From Candidatus Zambryskiibacteriota bacterium (GTDB lineage Bacteria; Patescibacteriota; Minisyncoccia; Phycocordibacterales; DATDWN01), in the NCBI GenBank assembly GCA_003173855.1, contig PPGI01000010.1, positions 62,304 through 126,303 on the forward strand: a DNA stretch of 64,000 nt, in the 5' to 3' direction. Shown here in pieces: positions 1-56,836 of this stretch. The notes below the pieces were generated by a model. That model was not told the DNA's origin and ran no database searches. It saw only the letters and a list, made by a program, of their open reading frames with translations. Every line of letters starts with the position of its first letter. The first letter of the stretch is position 1. The translations under genes and the position numbers were made by a program.

Positions 1-30
1 ACGATTAGAAATAACGGATAGACAAATACT

Positions 31-345
31 ATGGAAAACGATGTAAAATTTCTGGATTTTATTGTGAAATCTCTTGTAGAAAAACCAGAAGAAGTAAAAA
101 TCACACGAACAGTTGATGAAATGGGAGTGCTTATGACTTTGGATGTTTCCCCATCAGATATGGGGAAAATTATTGGACGTGAAGGAAATACTGCAAAAGC
201 AATCCGTACACTTCTTCGTGTCGTTGGTATGAAAAATAATGCTCGCGTTAATTTGAAAATTAATGAACCAGTGGGCGGAATGAAGGAGACAAAGGGATCG
301 TCAAGTAAATCTCTAGATGAAGCAATGAATGACCTGAAGCTTTAG
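31..345 (+). CDS. KH-domain RNA-binding protein (YlqC/UPF0109-like)
   Basis: 104-aa ORF with the KH-like GKIIGREGNTAKAIR motif. Sits at the position of the KH gene in the conserved rpsP-KH-rimM-trmD cluster. Confidence 0.65.
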   Translation: MENDVKFLDFIVKSLVEKPEEVKITRTVDEMGVLMTLDVSPSDMGKIIGREGNTAKAIRTLLRVVGMKNNARVNLKINEPVGGMKETKGSSSKSLDEAMNDLKL

Positions 346-434
346 TTTGACGAGGTGCATAACTTGATTGTTTTATATTTTTATAGTGCTAAAGTAAGGA
401 TTAGATTGTAGATCCATTTGAATTGAGGTGGGTA

Positions 435-587
435 ATGAGCGAGACATGTCCTGTCTGTCACGCTGGTCCGTGCTTGTGCTGGGTATTGGAGAGAAGACCT
501 GATGCTACCAGCTCTTGGAGTATGGCAACTAACACCTCCAAGAAAGATCGCGAAGTTTCTTCGCCAAACCCCACTCCTAAGAAATGA
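435..587 (+). CDS. Small Cys-rich ORF (50 aa, MSETCPVCHAGPCLCW...) inside a GC-rich patch. Protein-coding versus structured RNA is unresolved.
   Basis: Strong SD GAGGTGGG 4 nt before ATG 435. Stop TGA 585-587, then a terminator hairpin. Missing from the ORF track because of size. Local GC is far above the flanks. Confidence 0.3.
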   Translation: MSETCPVCHAGPCLCWVLERRPDATSSWSMATNTSKKDREVSSPNPTPKK

Positions 588-597
588 ACCAAAAGGA

Positions 598-624
598 AAG
601 GGCGCAATGTGCGCCCTTTGTCGT
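598..624. terminator. Rho-independent terminator hairpin (AAAGGGCGCA/TGCGCCCTTT)
   Basis: Perfect 10-bp GC-rich stem with a 3-nt loop and a T-rich tail. Lies between the small ORF and the trmD start. Confidence 0.5.
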
Positions 625-658
625 ATACAAAACTCTACTTTTGTGTTATAAATTCGAA

Positions 659-1315
659 GTGAATTATCACGTAATAACATTGTTTCCAAAAGCCTTCGAC
701 TCATATTTAAATGAGTCTATTATTTCGCGGGCAATTGAGGATAAGAAAATTAAAGTCAATTTTTATAATCCACGAGATTATTCAGATGATAAATGGAAGA
801 GAGTCGACCAGAAACCATACAGCGGCGGCCCAGGCATGGTCATTCAGGCACTTCCTGTCATCAAGGCAATTGAAAAAGCAGTCCAAAAAATCAAAAAAAA
901 TAAAAAAACAAAAATAAAAATTGTTTTCCTTTCACCTGGTGGAAAACAGTTTCAAACTCAAGTTGCAAAAAAATTTTCCAAATTTACTGACATCGTTATA
1001 GTTTCTGGAAGATATGAAGGTATTGATGCCCGTGTTAAAAAAATTTTTAAGATGGAAGAAGTTTCTGTCGGTCCATATGTTTTAACTGGGGGAGAGTTAC
1101 CTGCGATGATTTTAATTGATTCAATTTCGCGTCAAATTCCCGGAGTTTTGGGAAATTTCGGATCACTTGAAGAGACTAGAATTTCAGCTCATGATGTCTA
1201 TACACGTCCAGAAGTATTCGAATATAAAGGAAAGAAATATCGAGTTCCAAAGGTACTATTAAGTGGTCATCACAAAAAAATCGATGCATGGAAACTTGGT
1301 AGAAAACTATTTTAA
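659..1315 (+). CDS. trmD: tRNA (guanine37-N1)-methyltransferase TrmD
   Basis: HVITLFP, LSPGG and SGRYEGID motifs typical of TrmD. GTG 659 is in frame. The upstream ATG 584 would read through the terminator hairpin, so 659 is preferred. Confidence 0.8.
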   Translation: MNYHVITLFPKAFDSYLNESIISRAIEDKKIKVNFYNPRDYSDDKWKRVDQKPYSGGPGMVIQALPVIKAIEKAVQKIKKNKKTKIKIVFLSPGGKQFQTQVAKKFSKFTDIVIVSGRYEGIDARVKKIFKMEEVSVGPYVLTGGELPAMILIDSISRQIPGVLGNFGSLEETRISAHDVYTRPEVFEYKGKKYRVPKVLLSGHHKKIDAWKLGRKLF

Positions 1316-1363
1316 CTGAACATTCATTGCGTGTTCACAAATCTTCATTTATACTAAATCTCT

Positions 1364-2167
1364 ATGAAAATTATTGACGTTAAAGGAGTCTCCAAAAAAT
1401 TCGGAAATTTCGAGGCGGTTAAAAATATCTCCTTTGCAGTTGAACAGGGTACAATCTTTGCTTTTCTTGGTCCAAATGGTGCCGGCAAAACGACAACTAT
1501 AAAAATGCTAACAACTCTTCTCCATCCAACAGATGGCAGCATTAGTTTAAATGGATTTGACCCAGTTCATCATCCTGAACAAGCTAGGCATTCATTTGGC
1601 ATAGTTTTTCAAGATCCATCTCTAGACACGGAATTAACTGCTTACGAAAATATGGAATTTCACGCAGTTTTGTATGGAGTTAAATCCGATGTTTACAAAC
1701 CACGCATTCAAGAACTAATGGAGCTTGTTGATTTGTGGGACAGAAAAGATTCTTTAGTTAAAGATTTTTCTGGAGGAATGAAACGTCGTCTTGAAATTGC
1801 TCGTGGACTCTTACATCATCCAAAAGTTTTGTTTCTCGACGAGCCAACATTGGGACTTGATCCACAAACACGAAATCATATTTGGGGTTACATTCAAAAT
1901 TTAAATAAAAAAGAGGGTCTGACTGTTTTCTTTACAACCCACTACATGGATGAGGCGGATCGTGTTGCAAATACTGTTTCGATTATTGATCATGGGAAAA
2001 TTATTTCGAGCGGAAGCCCAGAGGAATTGAAACAAAAAACGAACACTAAATCTTTGGAGGAAGCCTTTCTTGCATTGACTGGAAATGAGGTACGACATGA
2101 AGAAGCAAGTTCAAAAGATTCAATGAGGCAAGCCCGAAGAATGTGGCAAGGAGGTAATCGAAGATAA
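1364..2167 (+). CDS. ABC transporter ATP-binding protein (ABC-2 / DrrA-like exporter)
   Basis: Walker A GPNGAGKTT, ABC signature FSGGMKRRL, Walker B LFLDEPT. Confidence 0.85.
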   Translation: MKIIDVKGVSKKFGNFEAVKNISFAVEQGTIFAFLGPNGAGKTTTIKMLTTLLHPTDGSISLNGFDPVHHPEQARHSFGIVFQDPSLDTELTAYENMEFHAVLYGVKSDVYKPRIQELMELVDLWDRKDSLVKDFSGGMKRRLEIARGLLHHPKVLFLDEPTLGLDPQTRNHIWGYIQNLNKKEGLTVFFTTHYMDEADRVANTVSIIDHGKIISSGSPEELKQKTNTKSLEEAFLALTGNEVRHEEASSKDSMRQARRMWQGGNRR

Positions 2168-2172
2168 AAAAT

Positions 2173-2916
2173 ATGAACACAATATATATACTTTGGTTAA
2201 GACAACTTAAAAGATATTTTAGATCAAAATCTAGAATTTTTGCCTCACTTGCTCAACCATTACTTTTTTTATTTGCTTTTGGTTATGGTTTTAGTTCAAT
2301 TTTCGCACGTGCTGGTGGGGGAAATTATATTAATTTTCTTGCTCCTGGAATTATTTCTATGTCGGTTATGTTTACTGCAGTTTTTTCTGGTATCGAAATA
2401 ATTTGGGACAAGCAATTCGGATTTCTAAAAGAAACGCTTGTGGCACCAGTTTCTCGATTTAACATTATGTTAGGGAGAACCATTGGAGGTTCAACCGTTG
2501 CTTTTATTCAAGGTCTAATTGTCCTTCTAATCACACTTCTTGTTGGATTCAGGCCATCATTATCGCTTTTATTTTTTGCACTAGTATTTATGTTTTTATT
2601 GGCATTATTTTTTACTGCACTTGGTACTGCTATTGCCTCAAAACTAGATGATATGCAGGGATTTCCACTCATCATGAATTTTCTTGTTATGCCACTTTTT
2701 TTTCTTTCGGGAGCTCTTTTTCCAGTTGCAGGTTTGCCAAAAATTTTCAGTTACATTGTTAAATTAAATCCTTTAACTTATGCAGTTGATGGAATTCGTG
2801 GAACTATGAATGGCATGCATGCATTTTCACTAACATTAGATTTTTTTGTTGTAGTAATTGTCGCAGTTGTTTGTATTTGGATTGGTTCATTACTATTCCG
2901 CAGCATCGAAGCCTAG
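2173..2916 (+). CDS. ABC-2 family transporter permease
   Basis: About six predicted TM helices. Immediately downstream of the ABC ATPase in the same operon. Confidence 0.75.
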   Translation: MNTIYILWLRQLKRYFRSKSRIFASLAQPLLFLFAFGYGFSSIFARAGGGNYINFLAPGIISMSVMFTAVFSGIEIIWDKQFGFLKETLVAPVSRFNIMLGRTIGGSTVAFIQGLIVLLITLLVGFRPSLSLLFFALVFMFLLALFFTALGTAIASKLDDMQGFPLIMNFLVMPLFFLSGALFPVAGLPKIFSYIVKLNPLTYAVDGIRGTMNGMHAFSLTLDFFVVVIVAVVCIWIGSLLFRSIEA

Positions 2917-2924
2917 TAAGAAAC

Positions 2925-2952
2925 CGCCAAAGGACGGGCGGTTCCTTGGCGG
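2925..2952. terminator. Bidirectional terminator hairpin between convergent genes
   Basis: CCGCC-A-AAGGA / TCCTT-GGCGG stem. Abuts the stop codons of the + permease and the - lipoprotein gene. Confidence 0.45.
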
Positions 2953-3399
2953 CTATTTAAGCAAGATAAGTCTCAGATACTCGGCTTCTACCTCGCTTGC
3001 TGTCATGATGACAAAATCTTCTGTTTTGTAGACTTTGCCACTCTCAAGAAAACAGTTTGCCAGCTTCACCTTGAGTGCAGAATTTCCTCGAATCTTTTGA
3101 AGGATTTTTGGTAAATCCTCACGCAAGAGAACATACGGTTCTCCGTGGAAACTGACTTCCCAAACATCACCAGCTTCTTTCTTCTCTTCCACGATTGGAA
3201 GAAAGTTTATTGAGCCAGTTGTCAGCTTGAAAAAATTCTTTGCAACTTCTTTGCACATTTTAGATATTTCGAATGAAGTGATAACCACTCGATCCTTGAA
3301 ATGTCCGTCGATCCTTACCTCAAGGAACTCTTCGGAGCAGGCTGTCATTGGGCAGAAAATTATTACTAGGAAAACAAGCGATCTTAAGAGCTTTTTCAT
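2953..3399 (-). CDS. Hypothetical lipoprotein
   Basis: MKKLLRSLVFLVIIFCPMTAC signal with a lipobox-like Cys. The ORF-track start at 3462 is probably an upstream extension. Confidence 0.45.
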   Translation of the reverse strand: MKKLLRSLVFLVIIFCPMTACSEEFLEVRIDGHFKDRVVITSFEISKMCKEVAKNFFKLTTGSINFLPIVEEKKEAGDVWEVSFHGEPYVLLREDLPKILQKIRGNSALKVKLANCFLESGKVYKTEDFVIMTASEVEAEYLRLILLK

Positions 3400-3484: not shown

Positions 3485-4606
3485 CTAGTAGTTCGTCTGG
3501 CACATCTTCTCCAGACGTTCGACGCGTTTGTTGTCTATCTCCATTCCAGCGATATCCAATTGCCGTTTTTCGTGCGGCACAAAATCTTTTTTCAAGATTT
3601 TTGCCCAATGACATTCTCCTTTGTAAATCGGGAGTATGGCCACGATATCTGCTTCCCACTGGCTTCTAAAAATATACTCTAAGTAATTCTGGCTAAGACC
3701 GGTCACAGCGTAATCTTTCTTGTAATCACGCCTAAAGATGGTATGACCAAACTCGTGACCCAAAAGAACGGCTAAATCCTCAGGGTCTTCCAGAATTTCG
3801 CGCAGGATTTGGATGCTGAGTCTGATTTCGAATCCGTTCTTACGCGAAATATTTTCAGCTACACCCACTTCTTTTATCACCTTGATTCTAACTCTACGGA
3901 GCTGGGGTTCCTGCCCTGGAAAAATACAGTACAAAACTTTGTATGCGAATTTCCTCCAAGTTCTTATGTTGGACTCTTTTTTTGGAAGAGCTTTGGGTAA
4001 TGGACAGGAATTGAGAAGTCTTTTTGGAGAAGTTGAATCAAAGATGTTATCAATATTGTTCAACCGAAGAAAGAGAGAAGAAGTAACTTGATCTGCTTCT
4101 TCTTTGGGAAGATTCTTCATTTCTTCGACCCATTCAGGAATCATCCTGTCTAGAAGACTAGAAACTGCATAAGCTCTTGGAGAAACAAGAAGGCTAAAAA
4201 TATCTGCCTCAAGTTCCTCCTTCCTTTTCTCTGTCCAATCAACAGCTTGATTTCCGTTCTGCTGAGAACTTTTGTGATCAAGCAGCCTATGGGCCATTTT
4301 GTGAGCCAGTAATGCTGCATACTCATACTGATCGTTTACGCACCGAATCAGCCGAGTCGTGATGGTTATTTTTGAATCACCAACATCATTTTCAGCAATG
4401 CTGTCACTCTCCAAGATTTGAATCTGAATTTTGCGTACGAATTCGAGCCGATTTGGGAAAAGGATTTCAAGTACATTACGGGAGTAATTTTCCCAAGTTT
4501 CTTTCGAAATTACTACTCGTGTGGGTAGTGGTGGAAGAGTCTCGGCCTCCAATTGAATATTGAAAAGAAAAATCAGTGTTAAAAACGCGAGTGCTTTATT
4601 TCTCAT
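3485..4606 (-). CDS. Secreted zinc metallopeptidase-like protein (HExxH)
   Basis: N-terminal signal peptide. HEFGH zinc-binding motif plus a degenerate second HKMAH. Two similar halves suggest an internal duplication. Confidence 0.5.
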   Translation of the reverse strand: MRNKALAFLTLIFLFNIQLEAETLPPLPTRVVISKETWENYSRNVLEILFPNRLEFVRKIQIQILESDSIAENDVGDSKITITTRLIRCVNDQYEYAALLAHKMAHRLLDHKSSQQNGNQAVDWTEKRKEELEADIFSLLVSPRAYAVSSLLDRMIPEWVEEMKNLPKEEADQVTSSLFLRLNNIDNIFDSTSPKRLLNSCPLPKALPKKESNIRTWRKFAYKVLYCIFPGQEPQLRRVRIKVIKEVGVAENISRKNGFEIRLSIQILREILEDPEDLAVLLGHEFGHTIFRRDYKKDYAVTGLSQNYLEYIFRSQWEADIVAILPIYKGECHWAKILKKDFVPHEKRQLDIAGMEIDNKRVERLEKMCQTNY

Positions 4607-4692
4607 TTATCACCTCAATTCAAAGAGCGTTTGTTAAACATTAGAACTTAAAAAAATAATGTCAATTTTAAATTTTCGATAGTATTGATACA

Positions 4693-7450: not shown

Positions 7451-7636
7451 TTAATGTCGAATGCCGATTTCCGGAGTGAGATTCCTGTGCCTTCGAATCC
7501 TGTTTGGATTTTCAACTGGAGCTTGATTCCAGTTGTGAAAGGCGATTGCGCCTTGAAGTCGGCTCACAGAAGCACGAAATTCGTACCTCTTTCGGCGAAT
7601 TCTCCTACGTCTTTCACGCAGGTGCTCAAATTTCAT
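7451..7636 (-). CDS. Small Arg-rich ORF (60 aa, MKFEHLRERRRRIRRKRYEF...) in a GC-rich 260-bp element. Could instead be an ncRNA.
   Basis: Near-consensus SD AGAGGAGAAATCT before ATG (rc of 7634-7636). Candidate promoter TTGACA-N15-GATAAT upstream on minus. A 3' UTR runs into the 7383-7406 terminator. Codon usage is foreign to the host. Confidence 0.25.
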   Translation of the reverse strand: MKFEHLRERRRRIRRKRYEFRASVSRLQGAIAFHNWNQAPVENPNRIRRHRNLTPEIGIRH

Positions 7637-20543: not shown

Positions 20544-20744
20544 ATGTTGCTTACGGTGATCTGGGAAGCCATTGGGTGGTCAGCTGACATCCTATTTCTT
20601 GTGTCTTACTTTCTGGTTTCCAGGAAAAAGATTACAGGTGAGGGATCAGTTTTCAACTGGATGAACCTTGGTGGCGCAACCTCCTATGGCATCTACGCCA
20701 TACACAAAGATGCCTATCCCGTCCTCATCCTCGAAATCTTCTAG
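20544..20744 (+). CDS. Small membrane protein (66 aa)
   Basis: Consensus SD GCAGGAGG before ATG 20544. One or two TM helices. Confidence 0.4.
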   Translation: MLLTVIWEAIGWSADILFLVSYFLVSRKKITGEGSVFNWMNLGGATSYGIYAIHKDAYPVLILEIF

Positions 20745-21299: not shown

Positions 21300-21302
21300 A
21301 AC

Positions 21303-21345
21303 CAACGTCGCGACAAAATATCGTCGCGGCGTTTTCATTTTAAAA
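21303..21345 (+). terminator. Rho-independent terminator
   Basis: ACGTCGCGAC-loop-GTCGCGGCGT stem with one G-U pair, followed by TTTTCATTTT. Confidence 0.45.
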
Positions 21346-21375
21346 AATTTAAAGTAAAATAAATTCGGAGGGGCC

Positions 21376-21534
21376 ATGAGCAGACCGAAAAGATGTTCAC
21401 GCTGCGGAAGTTCAAACATCCAAGTAATCACCAGTGGTTACAAATGTGGGGACTGCAAGAAGCCTGCTGCAACAGTCGAAACAGTTCTCACTCATGCAGT
21501 GAAAGGGACGCAAGCAATCGAGCGTCCAAACTAA
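21376..21534 (+). CDS. Zinc-ribbon small protein (52 aa; CxxC...CxxC)
   Basis: SD GGAGGGG before ATG 21376. Sequence MSRPKRCSRCGSSNIQVITSGYKCGDCKKPA. Strong terminator follows. Below the ORF-track size cutoff. Confidence 0.5.
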   Translation: MSRPKRCSRCGSSNIQVITSGYKCGDCKKPAATVETVLTHAVKGTQAIERPN

Positions 21535-21540
21535 TATTTA

Positions 21541-21572
21541 ACCCCGCACTTCAACCGAAGTGCGGGGTTCGT
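21541..21572 (+). terminator. Rho-independent terminator (CCCCGCACTTC aacc GAAGTGCGGGG)
   Basis: 11-bp perfect stem followed by TTCGTGATATTCT. Confidence 0.5.
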
Positions 21573-21586
21573 GATATTCTATATTC

Positions 21587-26055: not shown

Positions 26056-26073
26056 TAATTAAATTAAATCTGC

Positions 26074-26102
26074 TTGACATAGTTTAAGTAGTATGTTAAT
26101 CT
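26074..26102 (+). promoter_or_regulatory. Promoter TGCTTGACA-N17-TAATCTTA (copy 1)
   Basis: Consensus -35, 17-bp spacer, TAATCT -10. Extended identity with copy 2 (AAATnTGCTTGAC...TAATCTTA). Confidence 0.5.
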
Positions 26103-26161
26103 TATTTCCAGAAACATGGGGCAATTTCGCCTCAGAGTTCTCAAAAGGTAGGGCAAAAGTC

Positions 26162-26794
26162 ATGGCCAAGGAAATGCTGACTCTCGACCAGGTCACCGAA
26201 AACGTCGGAGGCCTCATCAAGACCATGAAGTCCGTCAAGGGCTTCCGGATCGGCGAGCCGATCACAGGCTTCGTCAAGAAGATGGCCGATGCCATCGAGG
26301 CCGGCAAGCAGGCCGACGCCATCGATGTCGGTGAGGAGCTCGTCTCCGTGGGTCGCTCGATCCTCGGCAAGTTCATCAGGAACTCAGTCGTGGATCAGAA
26401 GAGCGAGGCGGACGAGATGCTCCTCCGCCAGGCACACTTCAACAAGATCCTGTCGCGGGTCGTCGCCGAGGGTTACGACGAAGACATCGTCGCTCGTCTC
26501 GAGAAGCTTCGCAAGGAACTCGAGGAGGCGGTGAACGTCGAGCGCAACGGAACCTTCGAAGTTCGCATCGGCGCCTACAACGCCATGTCTCAGGCAGCGG
26601 AAGATGCTGACAAGGAACAGGAGAAGCGTGACAGAGTTCGTCGTGTTCAGAGGCAAGAAGCCGCTCGCGCTGCGGCGTCGAACGGCAAGAAGGACGCTCT
26701 TCCGCAGGTTCCGACGAACAAGGGCACCGAACAGCGCGCCACCCTGCTCGCCGCTCGCAAGCAGCAAGCCGACGCCCTGAAGGCACTCCTCTAA
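26162..26794 (+). CDS. Hypothetical alpha-helical Ala/Glu/Lys/Arg-rich protein (211 aa) with foreign high-GC codon usage
   Basis: ATG 26162 after AAGGTAGGG. GC3-biased codons (AAG, GTC, GCC, CGC) unlike the host. Terminator downstream. Confidence 0.5.
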   Translation: MAKEMLTLDQVTENVGGLIKTMKSVKGFRIGEPITGFVKKMADAIEAGKQADAIDVGEELVSVGRSILGKFIRNSVVDQKSEADEMLLRQAHFNKILSRVVAEGYDEDIVARLEKLRKELEEAVNVERNGTFEVRIGAYNAMSQAAEDADKEQEKRDRVRRVQRQEAARAAASNGKKDALPQVPTNKGTEQRATLLAARKQQADALKALL

Positions 26795-26819
26795 TCCGTC
26801 GGTCGACGACGTGTTCCAC

Positions 26820-26860
26820 AAGTCCGGGAAGGACAGCAAACTTCCCGGACTTTTCTATTG
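26820..26860 (+). terminator. Rho-independent terminator (AGTCCGGGAAG...CTTCCCGGACT TTTTCTATTG)
   Basis: 11-bp stem plus U-tract. Confidence 0.5.
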
Positions 26861-26871
26861 TTTAAATGTGC

Positions 26872-26900
26872 TTGACGAAAAGTGAAGATCATGATAATCT
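26872..26900 (+). promoter_or_regulatory. Promoter TGCTTGACG-N17-TAATCTTA (copy 2)
   Basis: Same architecture and extended flanks as copy 1. Confidence 0.5.
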
Positions 26901-26974
26901 TACCTTGTTGATACATTAGTTCATTCAGATCACCGTTCGCCTTGAGGCGAACACAAGCGAAGGGAGCGCAGACA

Positions 26975-27172
26975 ATGAGGACACACTCGCCGCCGATGGC
27001 GGCCCACACCTTCGGGGGAGCGCAGAGCGCTCAGCCCCAGCATTGCATGGTTTCCAGCACGATCATCGCGATTCACGAGCAGCTCGGCGCGCGCCGCGGC
27101 CTGACCGCCGGCGACGGCGTCTCGGAGGGGACATGCTTCGCTTATACCAGTCCGGCAACTCGAGCCCGTTGA
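26975..27172 (+). CDS. GC-rich small ORF (65 aa). The whole ~350-nt transcript is highly structured, so it may instead be an ncRNA.
   Basis: SD AAGGGAG before ATG 26975. Numerous local GC hairpins. Flanked by the promoter and the 27205 terminator. Confidence 0.25.
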   Translation: MRTHSPPMAAHTFGGAQSAQPQHCMVSSTIIAIHEQLGARRGLTAGDGVSEGTCFAYTSPATRAR

Positions 27173-27204
27173 AGGGCATCCTCTGAAGAGGACTTGCGAC
27201 GGCC

Positions 27205-27245
27205 GTTGAACGGCAAACCCGGGGGAGATTTCTCTCCCGGGTGTT
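27205..27245 (+). terminator. Rho-independent terminator (CCCGGGGGAGA ttt TCTCTCCCGGG TGTTTTTATT)
   Basis: Perfect 11-bp stem plus U-tract. Marks the end of the GC-rich island. Confidence 0.55.
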
Positions 27246-27400
27246 TTTATTATTTTAATTTTTAATTACCAATTAACTAAGATTTTCAGATTTGGATGCA
27301 GTTCTAGGCGGACAAGAAAAATGCGAGGAGCCTTACAACTGTAAGGTGACGAAGATTTTTTGAAGTCCAACAACGAAATGCGCCAAATGTGAAAATCGAG

Positions 27401-28896: not shown

Positions 28897-29262
28897 ATGA
28901 TTTCACAGTCTGACAGACGCGAGATGCTGGCTGCGATTGGGAGGATTCTGTGGGCATGCAGAGTGAAAAGGTGTCTCACAAGTAAAAACATAGGCTATAG
29001 AGCTGGAGTGCCTCGAGAAATTGTTGAGATGATCGAACGAGGGGAAGTGGCGGTCAAAAGCCAGATTGAAAGGGTGGTTGCTGCTTATCATTTTCACGAT
29101 GAAAGAGTGGAAGTGATCGCCAACTATTTGGCTGAAGTTTTTCCTTTCGGTGATCAAGTCGTTCAGATTGAAGTTCCTGTAACGAGAGATCCTGCGCCAA
29201 GGATTAGAAACAGGGCGCCAAAACAGGCAATACGACCATCTCATGGATGGTCCGGTCGGTAA
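28897..29262 (+). CDS. XRE-family HTH transcriptional regulator (paralog 1)
   Basis: YRAGVPREIVEMIERGE helix-turn-helix. Elevated GC. Confidence 0.55.
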   Translation: MISQSDRREMLAAIGRILWACRVKRCLTSKNIGYRAGVPREIVEMIERGEVAVKSQIERVVAAYHFHDERVEVIANYLAEVFPFGDQVVQIEVPVTRDPAPRIRNRAPKQAIRPSHGWSGR

Positions 29263-29266
29263 AGAT

Positions 29267-29303
29267 AGAGCACCAGTTTCGGCTGGTGCTCTTTGATTTT
29301 TAC
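29267..29303 (+). terminator. Rho-independent terminator (AGAGCACCAG tttcgg CTGGTGCTCT TTGATTTTTAC)
   Basis: Perfect 10-bp stem plus U-tract. Confidence 0.55.
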
Positions 29304-29368
29304 TCCAAAATTTGCAATAATTGATGATGGACTCTGTTTGCGAATGAACGCAAATAGGGAAATCGGAG

Positions 29369-29713
29369 GTGGCGATGCATATTCGCAATTCACCTGCAGA
29401 GATTCTTGGCAAGCTCATCCGCATAAATCGTGTGCTAACGATGAGTATGGGCAGCAAGGAAGAGCTTGCCGCAAAAGCGAATGTACCCGTCCAGGTGATT
29501 ACCTGGTTGGAGAAAGGAGAAGGAGAAAAACCTGACAGATCATTTGCCGAAAGAGTTCTTGATACTTTCAAGTTGACTGACAGGCCTCGCAGGTATCTTC
29601 AAGGACTGTTAAACACAGTCTTTGAACCCTCCACCATTCCGGTTGTCAAAGCCCCATTGGCTGCTTGGCAACCTCCAATTCGATGGAGGAGAGACACTCA
29701 ATTCCATAGATAA
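29369..29713 (+). CDS. XRE-family HTH transcriptional regulator (paralog 2)
   Basis: LAAKANVPVQVITWLEKGE HTH. Alignable with paralog 1. SD GGAGGTGG. Confidence 0.55.
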   Translation: MAMHIRNSPAEILGKLIRINRVLTMSMGSKEELAAKANVPVQVITWLEKGEGEKPDRSFAERVLDTFKLTDRPRRYLQGLLNTVFEPSTIPVVKAPLAAWQPPIRWRRDTQFHR

Positions 29714-55510: not shown

Positions 55511-56836
55511 CTATTGGACTAGCCCTAGAAGGGCAGCTGTTTGTCTTTGCTCCTTCTCAATTTTGTGGCGGATAAATCCACTCAAAACTGGAAGAGTTCC
55601 TTCGACTACTCCACTTACACCCCCGGTTGAGATTCCCAGTGCAACTGGAACACCGTAGGTTAAAGTTCCAAAGAGTAGTTTAGAGCCGAACGATTGTTGA
55701 CTCGGGTAAGTTGCGAGGAGTTTTCCATAACGCTTTTTTGATACGCTAGGAATTTTTTCCTCTTTGACTTTGGTTGCGTGATCTCGAAGGTCATTACTTC
55801 CGATTTCTGCAAAACGTTCTCCTCCGTGGTCAAAGACCACAGAAGAAGATTCTTGCACCGGAAGATCACGTGTCAGAACAACCTTGATTGCGTAGTTTCC
55901 ATCAGCGGTGTTCTCGATGATGGTAACTGTTTCTTTCCGATGCCAATTTCCATTCTCGTCTTTTGAAACGAGAAGTAGCGCCGGATGAGGTCCTTCTTTT
56001 ACGTCACGAAATTCTTTTCCACTAATGCGAATTTCGTAAACGCCCTTCTTTATAATTTTCAGTGAAGTTTTAGTTTCCGAAGCTATCACTCCACTACCAT
56101 CTTCGGATTTTGGATCCGGAGTCCTTTCCACTTCAGCACGAACATCATTCGTTCTGAAGGAGACCGAAACTGATCTTCCAAACGTTCCTGAGACGTACTC
56201 GGGAGCATTTGGTGTTTCCTCTACTGTCGTACCAGATTCAGGTGCCTGGGAAGTAACTTGGACAGTAGACTTCTCTGGCGAAACCTTTCGGGGTTTGCTT
56301 TGCACTTTACGTGCTACCTGAATTTTTTCTGGGTGCGGCAGATTGAACAAATCGCATGGAATCACAAGAGTCCAACCCACTTCGATGTGGTTTGGATTCC
56401 GGATCTCTACGATCCGTGATCCCACTTGCCTTGAAATAATATGGTAAGCGGAGAGCTCACCATAATAATCAAGAGCAATTTGTCCAAGCGTATCACCTTT
56501 GACCACTTCTCGTTCCAAGTTGCTGCAAGCATCTGGAGTAAGAGGTGTATCGGTGCTCTTCTTTGATGCTCCGGCTCTGCGGGCTTCAAGTTCTGCAAGA
56601 GCGGGGGCATCAATCTTTCTCTGTTGGGCTTTTCCTAATTCAAGTCCACCACCAAAGCCCAGCGCAAGAATTATTGCAGCAAGAACTGTTGCTGCAAGCG
56701 CTGAACCCAAAATGGTCTGCTTGATTCGTTCCCAACGGAGCCTTTCTCGGATCCTTGCCCATCTGTTTTCTACTACGATTACAGAGGGATTCTTACGGAC
56801 ACTCATTTGTCCACTCCTTCCCGAAAGTTTCGGCAA
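55511..56836 (-). CDS. LysM-domain membrane protein
   Basis: Cytoplasmic N-terminus, one TM helix, LysM (VKGDTLGQIALDYYG...GWTLVIP), and a C-terminal Gly-rich hydrophobic segment. Confidence 0.55.
   Translation of the reverse strand: MPKLSGRSGQMSVRKNPSVIVVENRWARIRERLRWERIKQTILGSALAATVLAAIILALGFGGGLELGKAQQRKIDAPALAELEARRAGASKKSTDTPLTPDACSNLEREVVKGDTLGQIALDYYGELSAYHIISRQVGSRIVEIRNPNHIEVGWTLVIPCDLFNLPHPEKIQVARKVQSKPRKVSPEKSTVQVTSQAPESGTTVEETPNAPEYVSGTFGRSVSVSFRTNDVRAEVERTPDPKSEDGSGVIASETKTSLKIIKKGVYEIRISGKEFRDVKEGPHPALLLVSKDENGNWHRKETVTIIENTADGNYAIKVVLTRDLPVQESSSVVFDHGGERFAEIGSNDLRDHATKVKEEKIPSVSKKRYGKLLATYPSQQSFGSKLLFGTLTYGVPVALGISTGGVSGVVEGTLPVLSGFIRHKIEKEQRQTAALLGLVQ

What the first reader, a model, noticed from the sequence alone, without database searches (positions are those of the whole stretch)
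360..658. rimM is replaced by a GC-rich mini-gene (50-aa Cys-rich peptide MSETCPVCHAGPCLCW...) between the KH-protein gene and trmD
The conserved rpsP-KH-rimM-trmD order is broken. Instead of rimM (~170 aa) there is a ~200-bp GC-rich patch with a strong SD (GAGGTGGG), a 50-aa ORF with a CPVCHAGPCLC metal-binding or RiPP-like N-terminus, and a perfect terminator. trmD then restarts from a GTG at 659. The sequence starts GAGGTG and ends CACCTC, which could close a helix, so a structured RNA is an alternative.
Basis: partly seen in the sequence, partly recalled or inferred. Interest (0 to 1): 0.55.

Follow-up and report, generated by a model that had tools for sequence, protein, structure and literature searches.

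The report
Orphan Cys-rich mini-gene before trmD
Between a KH-protein gene and trmD in this candidate-phyla-radiation (CPR) bacterium sits a GC-rich 50-codon reading frame with a strong ribosome-binding site and its own terminator; it has no relatives anywhere, it occupies a gap whose contents differ between related genomes, and it does not replace rimM, which this whole group of bacteria lacks.

Summary
There is a 313-nt gap (346-658) holding SD GAGGTG (425-430), a 50-codon ORF (435-587, four Cys in residues 5-15), a hairpin (597-619) and trmD starting at GTG 659.

- rimM is not "replaced". RimM is nearly absent from CPR bacteria, and none of about 100 Paceibacteria-type relatives has it at this locus.
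- Their KH-trmD gap ranges from 3 to over 1000 nt and holds unrelated, GC3-rich, SD-led small genes: 57-70-aa zinc-ribbon proteins, a 32-aa membrane peptide, and 128-155-aa proteins.
- In close relatives the gap ends in a terminator hairpin followed by an extended -10 promoter that makes trmD leaderless.

The window's peptide is an orphan. It has no homolog among 5.8 billion or 1.84 billion proteins, the fetched loci, or the phage and viral collections searched.

The other readings have no support:
- Structured RNA: Rfam finds nothing and folding is no better than shuffles.
- RiPP: there are no maturase genes nearby.

Coding evidence is mixed. In favour are the SD spacing, the shared architecture and composition, and an AlphaFold β-sheet (pLDDT 71 against 54 for a control frame). 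Against are a weak codon signal and the absence of any conservation data.

Best reading: a lineage-specific accessory mini-gene (confidence about 0.5). Interest is low to moderate.

The parts
31..345 (+). KH-domain (KhpA-type) protein gene. It follows rpsP, which lies just upstream of the window.
   Evidence: Pfam KH_KhpA-B, E 1.4e-20. L081 extends the identical sequence upstream to an S16 gene (TIGR00002, E 1e-17).
346..434 (+). AT-rich spacer upstream of the mini-gene. It has no terminator hairpin and only weak promoter-like hexamers (TTGACG 347-352, TATAGT 382-387) at non-canonical spacing. Co-transcription with rpsP-KH is therefore plausible.
   Evidence: The promoter/terminator scan finds no + strand site in 346-434. 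Fold z is -0.61. Relatives have a terminator plus a TAGGnnTATAAT promoter at this point, and the window does not.
417..430 (+). Translation-initiation region. It contains the SD core GAGGTG (425-430), 4 nt before the ATG. The 14-mer TTTGAATTGAGGTG is identical to the one in front of the M48-like gene (4611-4624, minus strand).
435..587 (+). 50-codon ORF MSETCPVCHAGPCLCWVLERRPDATSSWSMATNTSKKDREVSSPNPTPKK. GC is 0.50 and GC3 is 0.49. An orphan.
597..619 (+). Terminator-like hairpin: 10 pairs (6 G-C) around a 3-nt loop, as counted by the scan. On the + strand its three closing T's plus TTTGTCGT make only a short T run. It ends the rpsP-KH-(mini-gene) transcript. In close relatives an equivalent hairpin sits in front of the trmD promoter.
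   Evidence: The scan reports this hairpin only for the minus strand; the + strand tail does not meet its T-run criterion. It is 23/23 identical in L001. Equivalent hairpins with different stems (GGGAGAC/GTCTCCC, GGGACGC/GCGTCCC, GGAGGCC/GGCCTCC and others) sit at the same place in close relatives.
624..652 (+). trmD promoter: -35-like TATACA (624-629), a 17-nt spacer, then extended -10 TGTTATAAA (644-652). The -10 ends 6 nt before the start codon, so the predicted transcript is leaderless.
   Evidence: The motif TGTG[GT]TATAA, 6-8 nt before the start codon, is conserved in close relatives. There is no SD before trmD. The transcription start site is inferred, not measured.
659..1315 (+). trmD, GTG start, 218 aa.
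   Evidence: Pfam tRNA_m1G_MT, E 4.9e-39. Relatives align from residue 1 and are 215-220 aa long. The 243-aa form from ATG 584 (database protein P0006, NCBI source) runs through the hairpin and promoter, and its extension is not conserved.

Best explanation
It is a lineage-specific accessory mini-gene sitting in a variable gap between the KH-protein gene and trmD.

Proposed mechanism, with each step marked:

1. The rpsP-KH transcript, or a weak promoter of the mini-gene's own, reads through the AT-rich spacer. (Inferred.)
2. Ribosomes load at the canonical SD GAGGTG, 4 nt before ATG 435. This genome otherwise starts most genes without an SD, so this is a distinct initiation mode. (Sequence shown; translation inferred.)
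3. A 50-aa protein is made. Its first ~33 residues form a three-stranded β-sheet carrying four Cys (C5, C8, C13, C15) and His9 around the first turn, which is a candidate single metal site. Its Ser/Thr/Pro/Lys-rich tail is disordered. (The fold is a single-sequence prediction. Metal binding is inferred.)
4. Transcription stops at hairpin 597-619. (Inferred from sequence and from equivalent hairpins with different stems in relatives.)
5. trmD is then transcribed separately, as a leaderless mRNA, from the extended -10 promoter at 644-652. (Conserved motif shown; start site inferred.)

The gene's high GC and GC3, its SD and its lack of any homolog put it in a class of compositionally foreign, rapidly replaced small genes that fill this gap in related genomes. 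Its cellular role is unknown. The variety of cargo among relatives argues that it has no specific link to ribosome biogenesis or to RimM.
For: Initiation signal:
- SD core plus ATG at ideal spacing, in a genome where only 14 of 49 long ORFs have even a 4-nt SD-like match.
- Strong SD cores followed by a start codon mostly mark real gene starts.

Shared architecture:
- Relatives with verified small genes in the gap have the same layout, strand and position: SD, small ORF, 7-14 nt, hairpin, extended -10, trmD.
- One such family was called by gene finders in more than 24 contigs.
- Between L137 and L141 that family evolves as protein, with pN 0.26 against pS 0.74.

Shared composition:
- The ORF has GC 0.50 and GC3 0.49.
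- Five zinc-ribbon genes in relatives have GC 0.47-0.53 and GC3 0.48-0.56; three other cargo genes have GC3 0.61-0.68. Flanking genes are mostly at GC3 0.20-0.39.
- Only 2 of 54 window ORFs reach the ORF's GC3.

Recurrence in this window: the same cassette layout occurs at 21376-21534, a 52-aa CxxC...CxxC ORF with SD GGAGG, hairpins on both sides and a leaderless next gene.

Structure prediction:
- AlphaFold2 single sequence gives pLDDT 71.2 and pTM 0.42, with pLDDT 78-84 over the first 30 residues and strands at 3-8, 13-20 and 26-33.
- The overlapping alternative-frame ORF gives 54.4 and 0.18.

Assembly: the sequence is identical in an independent assembly.
Against: - No homolog exists anywhere, so the frame has no conservation or substitution-pattern support.
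- A codon model trained on 11 real cargo genes picks the true frame in 11 of 11 of them, at 0.01-0.21 bits per codon. The window ORF scores -0.02, only 0.02 above the next frame.
- GC2 (0.63) exceeds GC1 (0.39), which is unusual for a reading frame.
- Four of six frames are open here, so ORF length carries no weight.
- The Cys run lies in TG-rich DNA.
- Gene finders did not call the ORF in L081, and neither peptide form is on record.
- Unlike its relatives, the cassette has no upstream terminator and no clear promoter.
- The AlphaFold control is a single sequence, so it is weak.
Confidence: 0.5

Rival explanations
1. Non-functional cargo. The GC-rich patch is a leftover of acquired or decaying DNA in the variable gap. 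The SD and ATG are relics of a former gene, or fortuitous, and the 50-codon frame is open only because GC-rich sequence has few stop codons.
For: - It is an orphan in every search.
- The codon-model signal is near zero with no margin over other frames.
- GC2 exceeds GC1.
- Four of six frames are open.
- The ORF was not called by gene finders.
- The cassette lacks the upstream terminator and promoter that relatives have.
Against: - An intact 6-nt SD at ideal spacing, an ATG start, and a stop codon 9 nt before the terminator all match the layout of functional cassettes.
- No remnant of any known cargo protein, zinc-ribbon family member or RimM is detectable in any frame.
- AlphaFold confidence is higher than for the alternative frame.
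Confidence: 0.3
2. A structured non-coding RNA. The GC island in an AT-rich genome is bounded by a terminator, and the ORF is incidental.
For: - GC enrichment relative to the genome.
- Local perfect hairpins at 513-520/536-543 and at 550-564.
- For the whole gap, z is -2.3 on the + strand and -3.5 on the minus strand.
Against: - No Rfam match in the permissive scan of 1-3000, and none at gathering threshold across the whole window.
- Once the terminator is removed, z is only -0.85 to -1.4, and 10-22% of shuffles fold as well.
- There is no nucleotide homolog in 147 loci, so no covariation can be tested.
- The equally GC-rich cargo in relatives evolves as protein with saturated synonymous sites, and folds no better than shuffles.
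Confidence: 0.07
3. A RiPP precursor or secreted Cys-rich peptide, exported by the ABC transporter encoded downstream of trmD.
For: - A Cys-rich N-terminus.
- An ABC ATPase plus ABC-2 permease at 1364-2916, and an M48-like peptidase at 3485-4606 that shares the 14-nt initiation region.
Against: - No maturase is present among the genes scanned between 1364 and 7373. Radical-SAM, lanthipeptide synthetase, YcaO and cyclase types were looked for.
- The Cys residues sit at the N-terminus, where a leader peptide would normally be.
- The ABC genes are not linked to the gap in relatives, where PIF1 follows trmD.
- No homologous precursor family exists.
Confidence: 0.03
4. A diverged member of the zinc-ribbon mini-protein family found in the same gap in L001, L006, L017, L018 and P0004.
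For: - Same position, strand, composition and terminator. The hairpin is 23/23 identical to that of L001, which carries a family member.
- A CPVC knuckle is present, and SSWSMATN loosely resembles the family motif S-N-W-H-I-A-T-Q.
- The ORF frame is the best of the six frames against the family HMM.
Against: - The HMM score is only 1.5 bits, and 611 of 5000 composition-preserving shuffles score as well (P about 0.12).
- The second knuckle is CxC rather than CxxC, and the knuckles are 4 residues apart rather than about 11. The spacing to the W motif also differs.
- At a similar TrmD distance, true orthologs keep 62% identity.
Confidence: 0.1

Closest known systems
Small zinc-ribbon proteins (57-70 aa) encoded between the KH gene and trmD in related Paceibacteria (P0001-P0004, L017). 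They are unannotated 'hypothetical proteins' with only sub-threshold Pfam zinc-ribbon hits.
   Same: - Identical genomic position and strand.
- SD-led translation.
- GC and GC3 far above the host genes.
- The stop codon lies 7-14 nt before a hairpin that precedes the leaderless trmD promoter.
- An N-terminal Cys cluster that includes a CPxC-type knuckle.
   Different: - No significant sequence similarity (P about 0.12).
- The second knuckle is CxC.
- The inter-knuckle loop is much shorter.
- The cassette has no upstream terminator or promoter of its own.
- The peptide is a singleton.
The canonical bacterial rpsP-(KH)-rimM-trmD-rplS operon.
   Same: rpsP, the KH gene and trmD are adjacent, in the same order and orientation.
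   Different: - rimM is absent, a known CPR-wide loss. In the relatives whose gene tables were retrieved, no rplS follows trmD.
- A terminator and a separate leaderless promoter split trmD from rpsP-KH.
- The gap holds variable accessory genes.
Horizontal-transfer hotspots, or 'genomic islets', between conserved core genes.
   Same: Conserved flanking genes surround highly variable, compositionally atypical cargo that differs between close relatives.
   Different: - The cargo is tiny: one small gene of 32-256 codons.
- No integrase, transposase or flanking repeat was seen.
- The mechanism of turnover is unknown.

Membership tests
RimM (16S rRNA processing protein) | RimM N-terminal domain (PF01782) plus a PRC barrel (PF05239 / PF24986) | tested here: not met
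   - The peptide and the other ORFs in the gap have no Pfam RimM or PRC hit.
- A RimM HMM built from L121, L122, L125, L128 and L130 scores below 0 bits on all six frames of 346-660. It finds nothing in any ORF of the window or of L001-L080.
- Positive controls L121 and L130 hit PF01782 at about 1e-22 to 1e-23.
Slot-encoded zinc-ribbon mini-proteins (P0001-P0004, L017) | Significant match to the family profile | tested here: not met
   Score 1.5 bits. 611 of 5000 shuffles score at least as high. The peptide was not found with E<10 among all ORFs.
Slot-encoded zinc-ribbon mini-proteins (P0001-P0004, L017) | Two Cys pairs (the second always CxxC) separated by about 11 residues, followed by an S-[ND]-W-x-x-A-[ST]-Q motif in four of the five members | tested here: not met
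   The window has CPVC, then 4 residues, then CLC. SSWSMATN matches only S, W, A and T, and sits at a different spacing.
Slot-encoded zinc-ribbon mini-proteins (P0001-P0004, L017) | Position between KH and trmD on the + strand, SD-led, GC3-rich, stop codon just before the pre-trmD hairpin | tested here: met
Any Rfam RNA family / structured ncRNA | Covariance-model match, or folding energy beyond shuffles, or covariation | tested here: not met
   No credible hit. z is -0.85 to -1.4 without the terminator. Covariation cannot be tested because there are no homologs.
RiPP precursor | Co-located maturase genes and a recognisable precursor family | tested here: not met
   The neighbours scanned carry no maturase domains. 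No homologous peptides exist.
Intrinsic (Rho-independent) terminator | G+C-rich stem-loop followed by a U run, at the 3' end of a transcription unit | tested here: inconclusive
   - The scan counts 10 pairs, 6 of them G-C, with a 3-nt loop, but it reports the site only for the minus strand.
- Equivalent hairpins with different stem sequences occur in relatives.
- The + strand U run is only 3 nt in the window.
- Termination itself was not measured.
Leaderless mRNA (trmD) | Transcription start at or within a few nt of the start codon, and no SD | not testable with these tools
   The sequence is compatible. The extended -10 TGTTATAAA ends 6 nt before GTG 659, the motif is conserved in relatives, and there is no SD. 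A mapped 5' end is needed.
Metal-binding (zinc) mini-protein | Four ligands positioned to bind one metal ion; metal-dependent folding | not testable with these tools
   Four Cys plus one His lie within 11 residues, around the first predicted β-turn. The model's coordinates could not be inspected, and there is no fold match (E>3).

The most novel reading that the evidence does not exclude
The KH-trmD gap, and other intergenic sites in this genome such as 21300-21586 and 26060-27250, may be docking sites for a class of exchangeable mini-cassettes in Paceibacteria.

Each cassette would be SD-led and GC3-rich, ending in a hairpin (many relatives also have one upstream). The cassettes would be gained, lost and swapped between lineages by a mechanism not yet identified.

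Two observations hint at movement or shuffling of cassette parts:
- The window shares a 23-nt identical hairpin with L001, which is not its closest relative, yet the two ORFs are unrelated.
- GC3 stays high in the cargo even where synonymous sites are saturated.

On this reading the window's ORF would be one newly sampled cargo.
Probability: 0.15. Interest if true: 0.55.

Novelty: new member of a known kind. Interest (0 to 1): 0.25.

Why it matters
If translated, this adds one more orphan small protein to the largely unannotated small-protein set of CPR bacteria. It also shows that automated annotation missed it and over-extended trmD across a terminator and a promoter.

The more useful outcome is contextual:
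- The 'missing rimM' is the known CPR-wide loss, not a local event.
- The KH-trmD junction in this lineage is a variable gap filled with compositionally foreign, SD-led mini-genes.
- trmD itself appears to be leaderless.

This helps with annotating start sites and small genes in Patescibacteria. It also gives a defined locus for studying small-gene turnover.

Tried and rejected
RNA:
- Rfam, both a permissive scan of 1-3000 and a gathering-threshold scan of the whole window, gave only sub-threshold matches (below 27 bits against gathering scores of 45-110).
- tRNA/tmRNA scan: none.
- Folding z-scores on both strands and on sub-regions showed that only the terminator drives the signal.

Homologs of the peptide:
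- Word-indexed search of 5.8 billion proteins: none.
- Full phmmer against 1.84 billion representatives: one spurious tandem-repeat hit.
- Pfam, NCBIfam and PHROGs: none.
- tblastn against all fetched loci: none.
- Viral contigs and phage genomes: none.
- Exact look-ups of both peptide forms: not on record.

Closer relatives, for a substitution-pattern test:
- Genome and metagenome scans with TrmD top out at 80% identity.
- The protein search found one relative at 85% (L144), and it carries a different cargo.

Pseudogene hypotheses:
- Zinc-ribbon family HMM against all six frames.
- RimM HMM.
- All relatives' cargo ORFs against the gap. Only the conserved hairpin and promoter DNA matches.

Other checks:
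- Repeat or mobile-element copy within the window: none, apart from a 14-mer at the M48-like gene's SD.
- RiPP context: rejected.
- Foldseek of the AlphaFold model against the PDB: no significant match.

Full report
**1. What is in the sequence**

Window 1-1315 holds the following features.

- A KH-domain gene at 31-345 (Pfam KH_KhpA-B).
- A 313-nt gap at 346-658.
- trmD at 659-1315 (Pfam tRNA_m1G_MT).

Inside the gap:

| Feature | Coordinates |
|---|---|
| AT-rich spacer | 346-434 |
| SD core GAGGTG, 4 nt before the ATG | 425-430 |
| 50-codon ORF | 435-587 |
| Hairpin AAAGGGCGCAATGTGCGCCCTTT | 597-619 |
| -35-like TATACA | 624-629 |
| Extended -10 TGTTATAAA | 644-652 |
| GTG start of trmD | 659 |

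The ORF encodes MSETCPVCHAGPCLCWVLERRPDATSSWSMATNTSKKDREVSSPNPTPKK.

GC reaches 0.48-0.53 across about 400-630, against 0.37 for the window. That is about 2 sd above the mean, and many other islands are as rich or richer.

A Logan contig from SRR490130 (L081) is 100% identical over window 1-718. It shows rpsP immediately upstream.

**2. rimM is not 'replaced'**

I fetched 80 loci from species-representative genomes and 55 from metagenomes, using TrmD as the query. All close hits are Patescibacteria of the Parcubacteria/Paceibacteria type.

In 109 loci with KH and trmD on the same strand, the gap length falls as follows:

| Gap length | Loci |
|---|---|
| under 100 nt | 36 |
| 100-199 nt | 17 |
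| 200-399 nt | 22 |
| 400-699 nt | 22 |
| 700 nt or more | 12 |

Only the distant loci (39-43% TrmD identity) have RimM in the gap. Pfam confirmed this for L121 and L130 (PF01782 plus PRC).

A RimM HMM finds nothing in the six frames of the window's gap, in any ORF of at least 25 aa in the 64-kb window, or within 3 kb of trmD in 80 relatives. Ten mid-size window ORFs have other Pfam identities or none.

Two papers report RimM as nearly absent or missing in most CPR genomes (PMC12641178 and PMC6744442). Gene tables for relatives show S16, KH, a small ORF and TrmD. They show no RimM, and no L19 after TrmD.

**3. The gap is a variable slot with a conserved 3' frame**

Among close relatives, the last ~70 nt before trmD follow one plan:

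- a G+C hairpin followed by T's,
- about 20-25 nt, often containing TATACAAAA,
- TGTG[GT]TATAA,
- 6-8 nt, then the start codon.

The stems differ between loci but stay paired: GGGCGC/GCGCCC, GGGAGAC/GTCTCCC, GGGACGC/GCGTCCC, GGAGGCC/GGCCTCC. This is what one expects of a selected terminator.

trmD has no SD, and the -10 box sits one promoter-to-start distance from the start codon. trmD is therefore most likely leaderless. That is an inference, because no 5' ends are available.

Several other window genes have a -10-like box directly before the ATG, and only 14 of 49 long ORFs have even a 4-nt SD-like match.

The frame upstream of the trmD start carries stop codons in 7 of 9 relatives. The 243-aa version that starts at ATG 584 (database protein P0006, NCBI source) is therefore an over-extension.

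**4. What relatives carry in the slot**

The cargo is heterogeneous and unrelated between lineages.

- A 57-70-aa zinc-ribbon family in L001, L006, L017, L018 and P0004.
- A 134-146-aa family in L009, L010, L023 and L082.
- 32-33-aa hydrophobic peptides. One is in L144, the closest TrmD relative at 85% identity, and one is in L019.
- Unique 128-aa and 155-aa proteins in L145 and L147.
- Several larger genes.

In the cassettes examined in detail, the cargo has a terminator and a promoter upstream, a strong SD, and the shared hairpin downstream.

The zinc-ribbon gene is real:

- Gene finders called it in more than 24 contigs.
- L137 against L141 gives pN 0.26 and pS 0.74. Synonymous sites are as saturated as in the flanking genes.

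All eight cargo genes measured are GC-rich, with GC3 of 0.48-0.68. Flanking genes are mostly at GC3 0.20-0.39.

**5. Is the window's ORF one of them?**

By position, strand, SD, composition (GC 0.50, GC3 0.49) and distance to the hairpin, yes. By sequence, no.

- No word-sharing protein among 5.8 billion.
- Only a spurious repeat protein among 1.84 billion representatives.
- No Pfam, NCBIfam or PHROGs family.
- No tblastn or blastn match in 147 loci, apart from the hairpin and promoter.
- No match in the viral or phage collections.

Against the zinc-ribbon family HMM the peptide scores 1.5 bits, and 611 of 5000 shuffles score as well. The second Cys pair is CxC rather than CxxC, and the spacing differs.

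No frame of the gap resembles any cargo protein or RimM.

**6. Coding or not?**

For:

- The SD core at ideal spacing is rare in this genome. Where a strong SD core precedes a start codon, it mostly marks a real gene start, for example 4606, 3399, 37798 and 56806.
- The layout matches real cassettes.
- A second cassette of identical design lies at 21376-21534. It holds a 52-aa CxxC...CxxC ORF with SD GGAGG, hairpins on both sides, and a leaderless next gene.
- Other SD-led GC-rich small ORFs exist at 7451-7636 (minus strand), 20544-20744 and 26975-27172.
- AlphaFold2 single sequence gives pLDDT 71 and pTM 0.42, with three strands in residues 3-33. The overlapping alternative frame gives 54 and 0.18.

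Against:

- A codon model trained on 11 real cargo genes identifies the true frame in 11 of 11 of them, at 0.01-0.21 bits per codon. It gives this ORF -0.02, with a margin of only 0.02.
- GC2 exceeds GC1.
- Four of six frames are open.
- Gene finders skipped the ORF.
- No upstream terminator or clear promoter is present.

I put translation into a functional small protein at about 0.5, and a non-functional relic at about 0.3.

**7. Alternatives**

- Structured RNA: there are no Rfam hits. Without the terminator the fold is not better than shuffles.
- RiPP: the neighbourhood has no maturase.

**8. Verdict**

This is an ordinary but unannotated orphan mini-gene candidate in a variable intergenic slot.

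- The 'rimM replacement' is a known clade-wide absence.
- The slot itself is the more interesting by-product: conserved hairpin and leaderless promoter, with GC3-rich SD-led cargo that differs even between close relatives.
- No mobility mechanism was found.

Noticed in passing
window 26060-27250: Two very GC-rich cassettes (GC 0.60-0.71, against 0.37 for the genome) lie after uppP/bacA.
- Each starts with GCTTGAC[AG]-N17-TAATCT and ends in a G+C hairpin followed by T's.
- They carry a 233-aa ORF (26093-26794, GC3 0.75, no Pfam or NCBIfam hit) and a ~65-aa SD-led ORF (26975-27172).
- They look like foreign insertions.
   Followed up: partly
window 21300-21586: A second mini-gene cassette has the same design as the finding.
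- Order: hairpin, SD GGAGG, a 52-aa ORF, hairpin, then a -10 box directly before the leaderless 979-aa helicase gene.
- The ORF (21376-21534, MSRPKRCSRCG...CGDCKK) has a canonical zinc-ribbon Cys pattern.
- It shows no similarity to the 435-587 peptide.
   Followed up: partly
window 417-430 and 4611-4624 (minus strand): An identical 14-mer, TTTGAATTGAGGTG, spans the SD of both the mini-gene and the M48-like peptidase gene (3485-4606). That gene has the only other full-length SD in the first 10 kb and is also a GC3 outlier (0.41). BLAST E is 0.06, so this may be chance.
   Followed up: partly
whole window: Most genes lack an SD; only 14 of 49 long ORFs have a 4-nt match. Several have a TATAAT-like box 5-10 nt before the start codon, which suggests widespread leaderless initiation. 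The SD-led genes tend to be the GC3-rich ones (2953-3399, 3485-4606, 28903-29571 region, 55511-56836).
   Followed up: partly
window 584-1315: The protein database holds this genome's TrmD as a 243-aa product starting at ATG 584 (P0006, NCBI source, contig of 221 kb). That start overlaps the mini-ORF stop codon (ATGA) and reads through the hairpin and promoter. Relatives indicate that GTG 659 (218 aa) is the true start.
   Followed up: yes
window 597-619 and L001 2946-2968: The pre-trmD hairpin is 23/23 identical, loop included, between the window and L001. L001 is not the closest relative (77.6% TrmD identity), and several relatives with equal or higher TrmD identity have different stems. The ORFs upstream of the two hairpins are unrelated. 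Unexplained; it may hint at exchange of cassette parts.
   Followed up: partly
L137 and L141 (relatives), zinc-ribbon gene in the slot: Synonymous sites are saturated between the orthologs (pS 0.74), yet GC3 stays near 0.48 in genomes whose flanking genes have GC3 of 0.21-0.30. Something maintains the high GC3 of the cargo genes. RNA folding is not unusual (z near 0).
   Followed up: partly
L144 13-111 and L019 (KH-trmD gap): The closest TrmD relative carries a 32-aa hydrophobic peptide (MITILMILGAIVVGVLFVLFLVKVLAKFWLGA) with SD GGAGG in the slot. L019 has a similar 33-aa peptide. These are reminiscent of type I toxin-like or membrane micro-proteins.
   Followed up: no
window 7451-7636 (minus strand) and 20544-20744 (plus strand): Two further SD-led small ORFs lie in GC-enriched intergenic stretches. 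One is 61 aa and Arg-rich. The other is 66 aa and hydrophobic.
   Followed up: no
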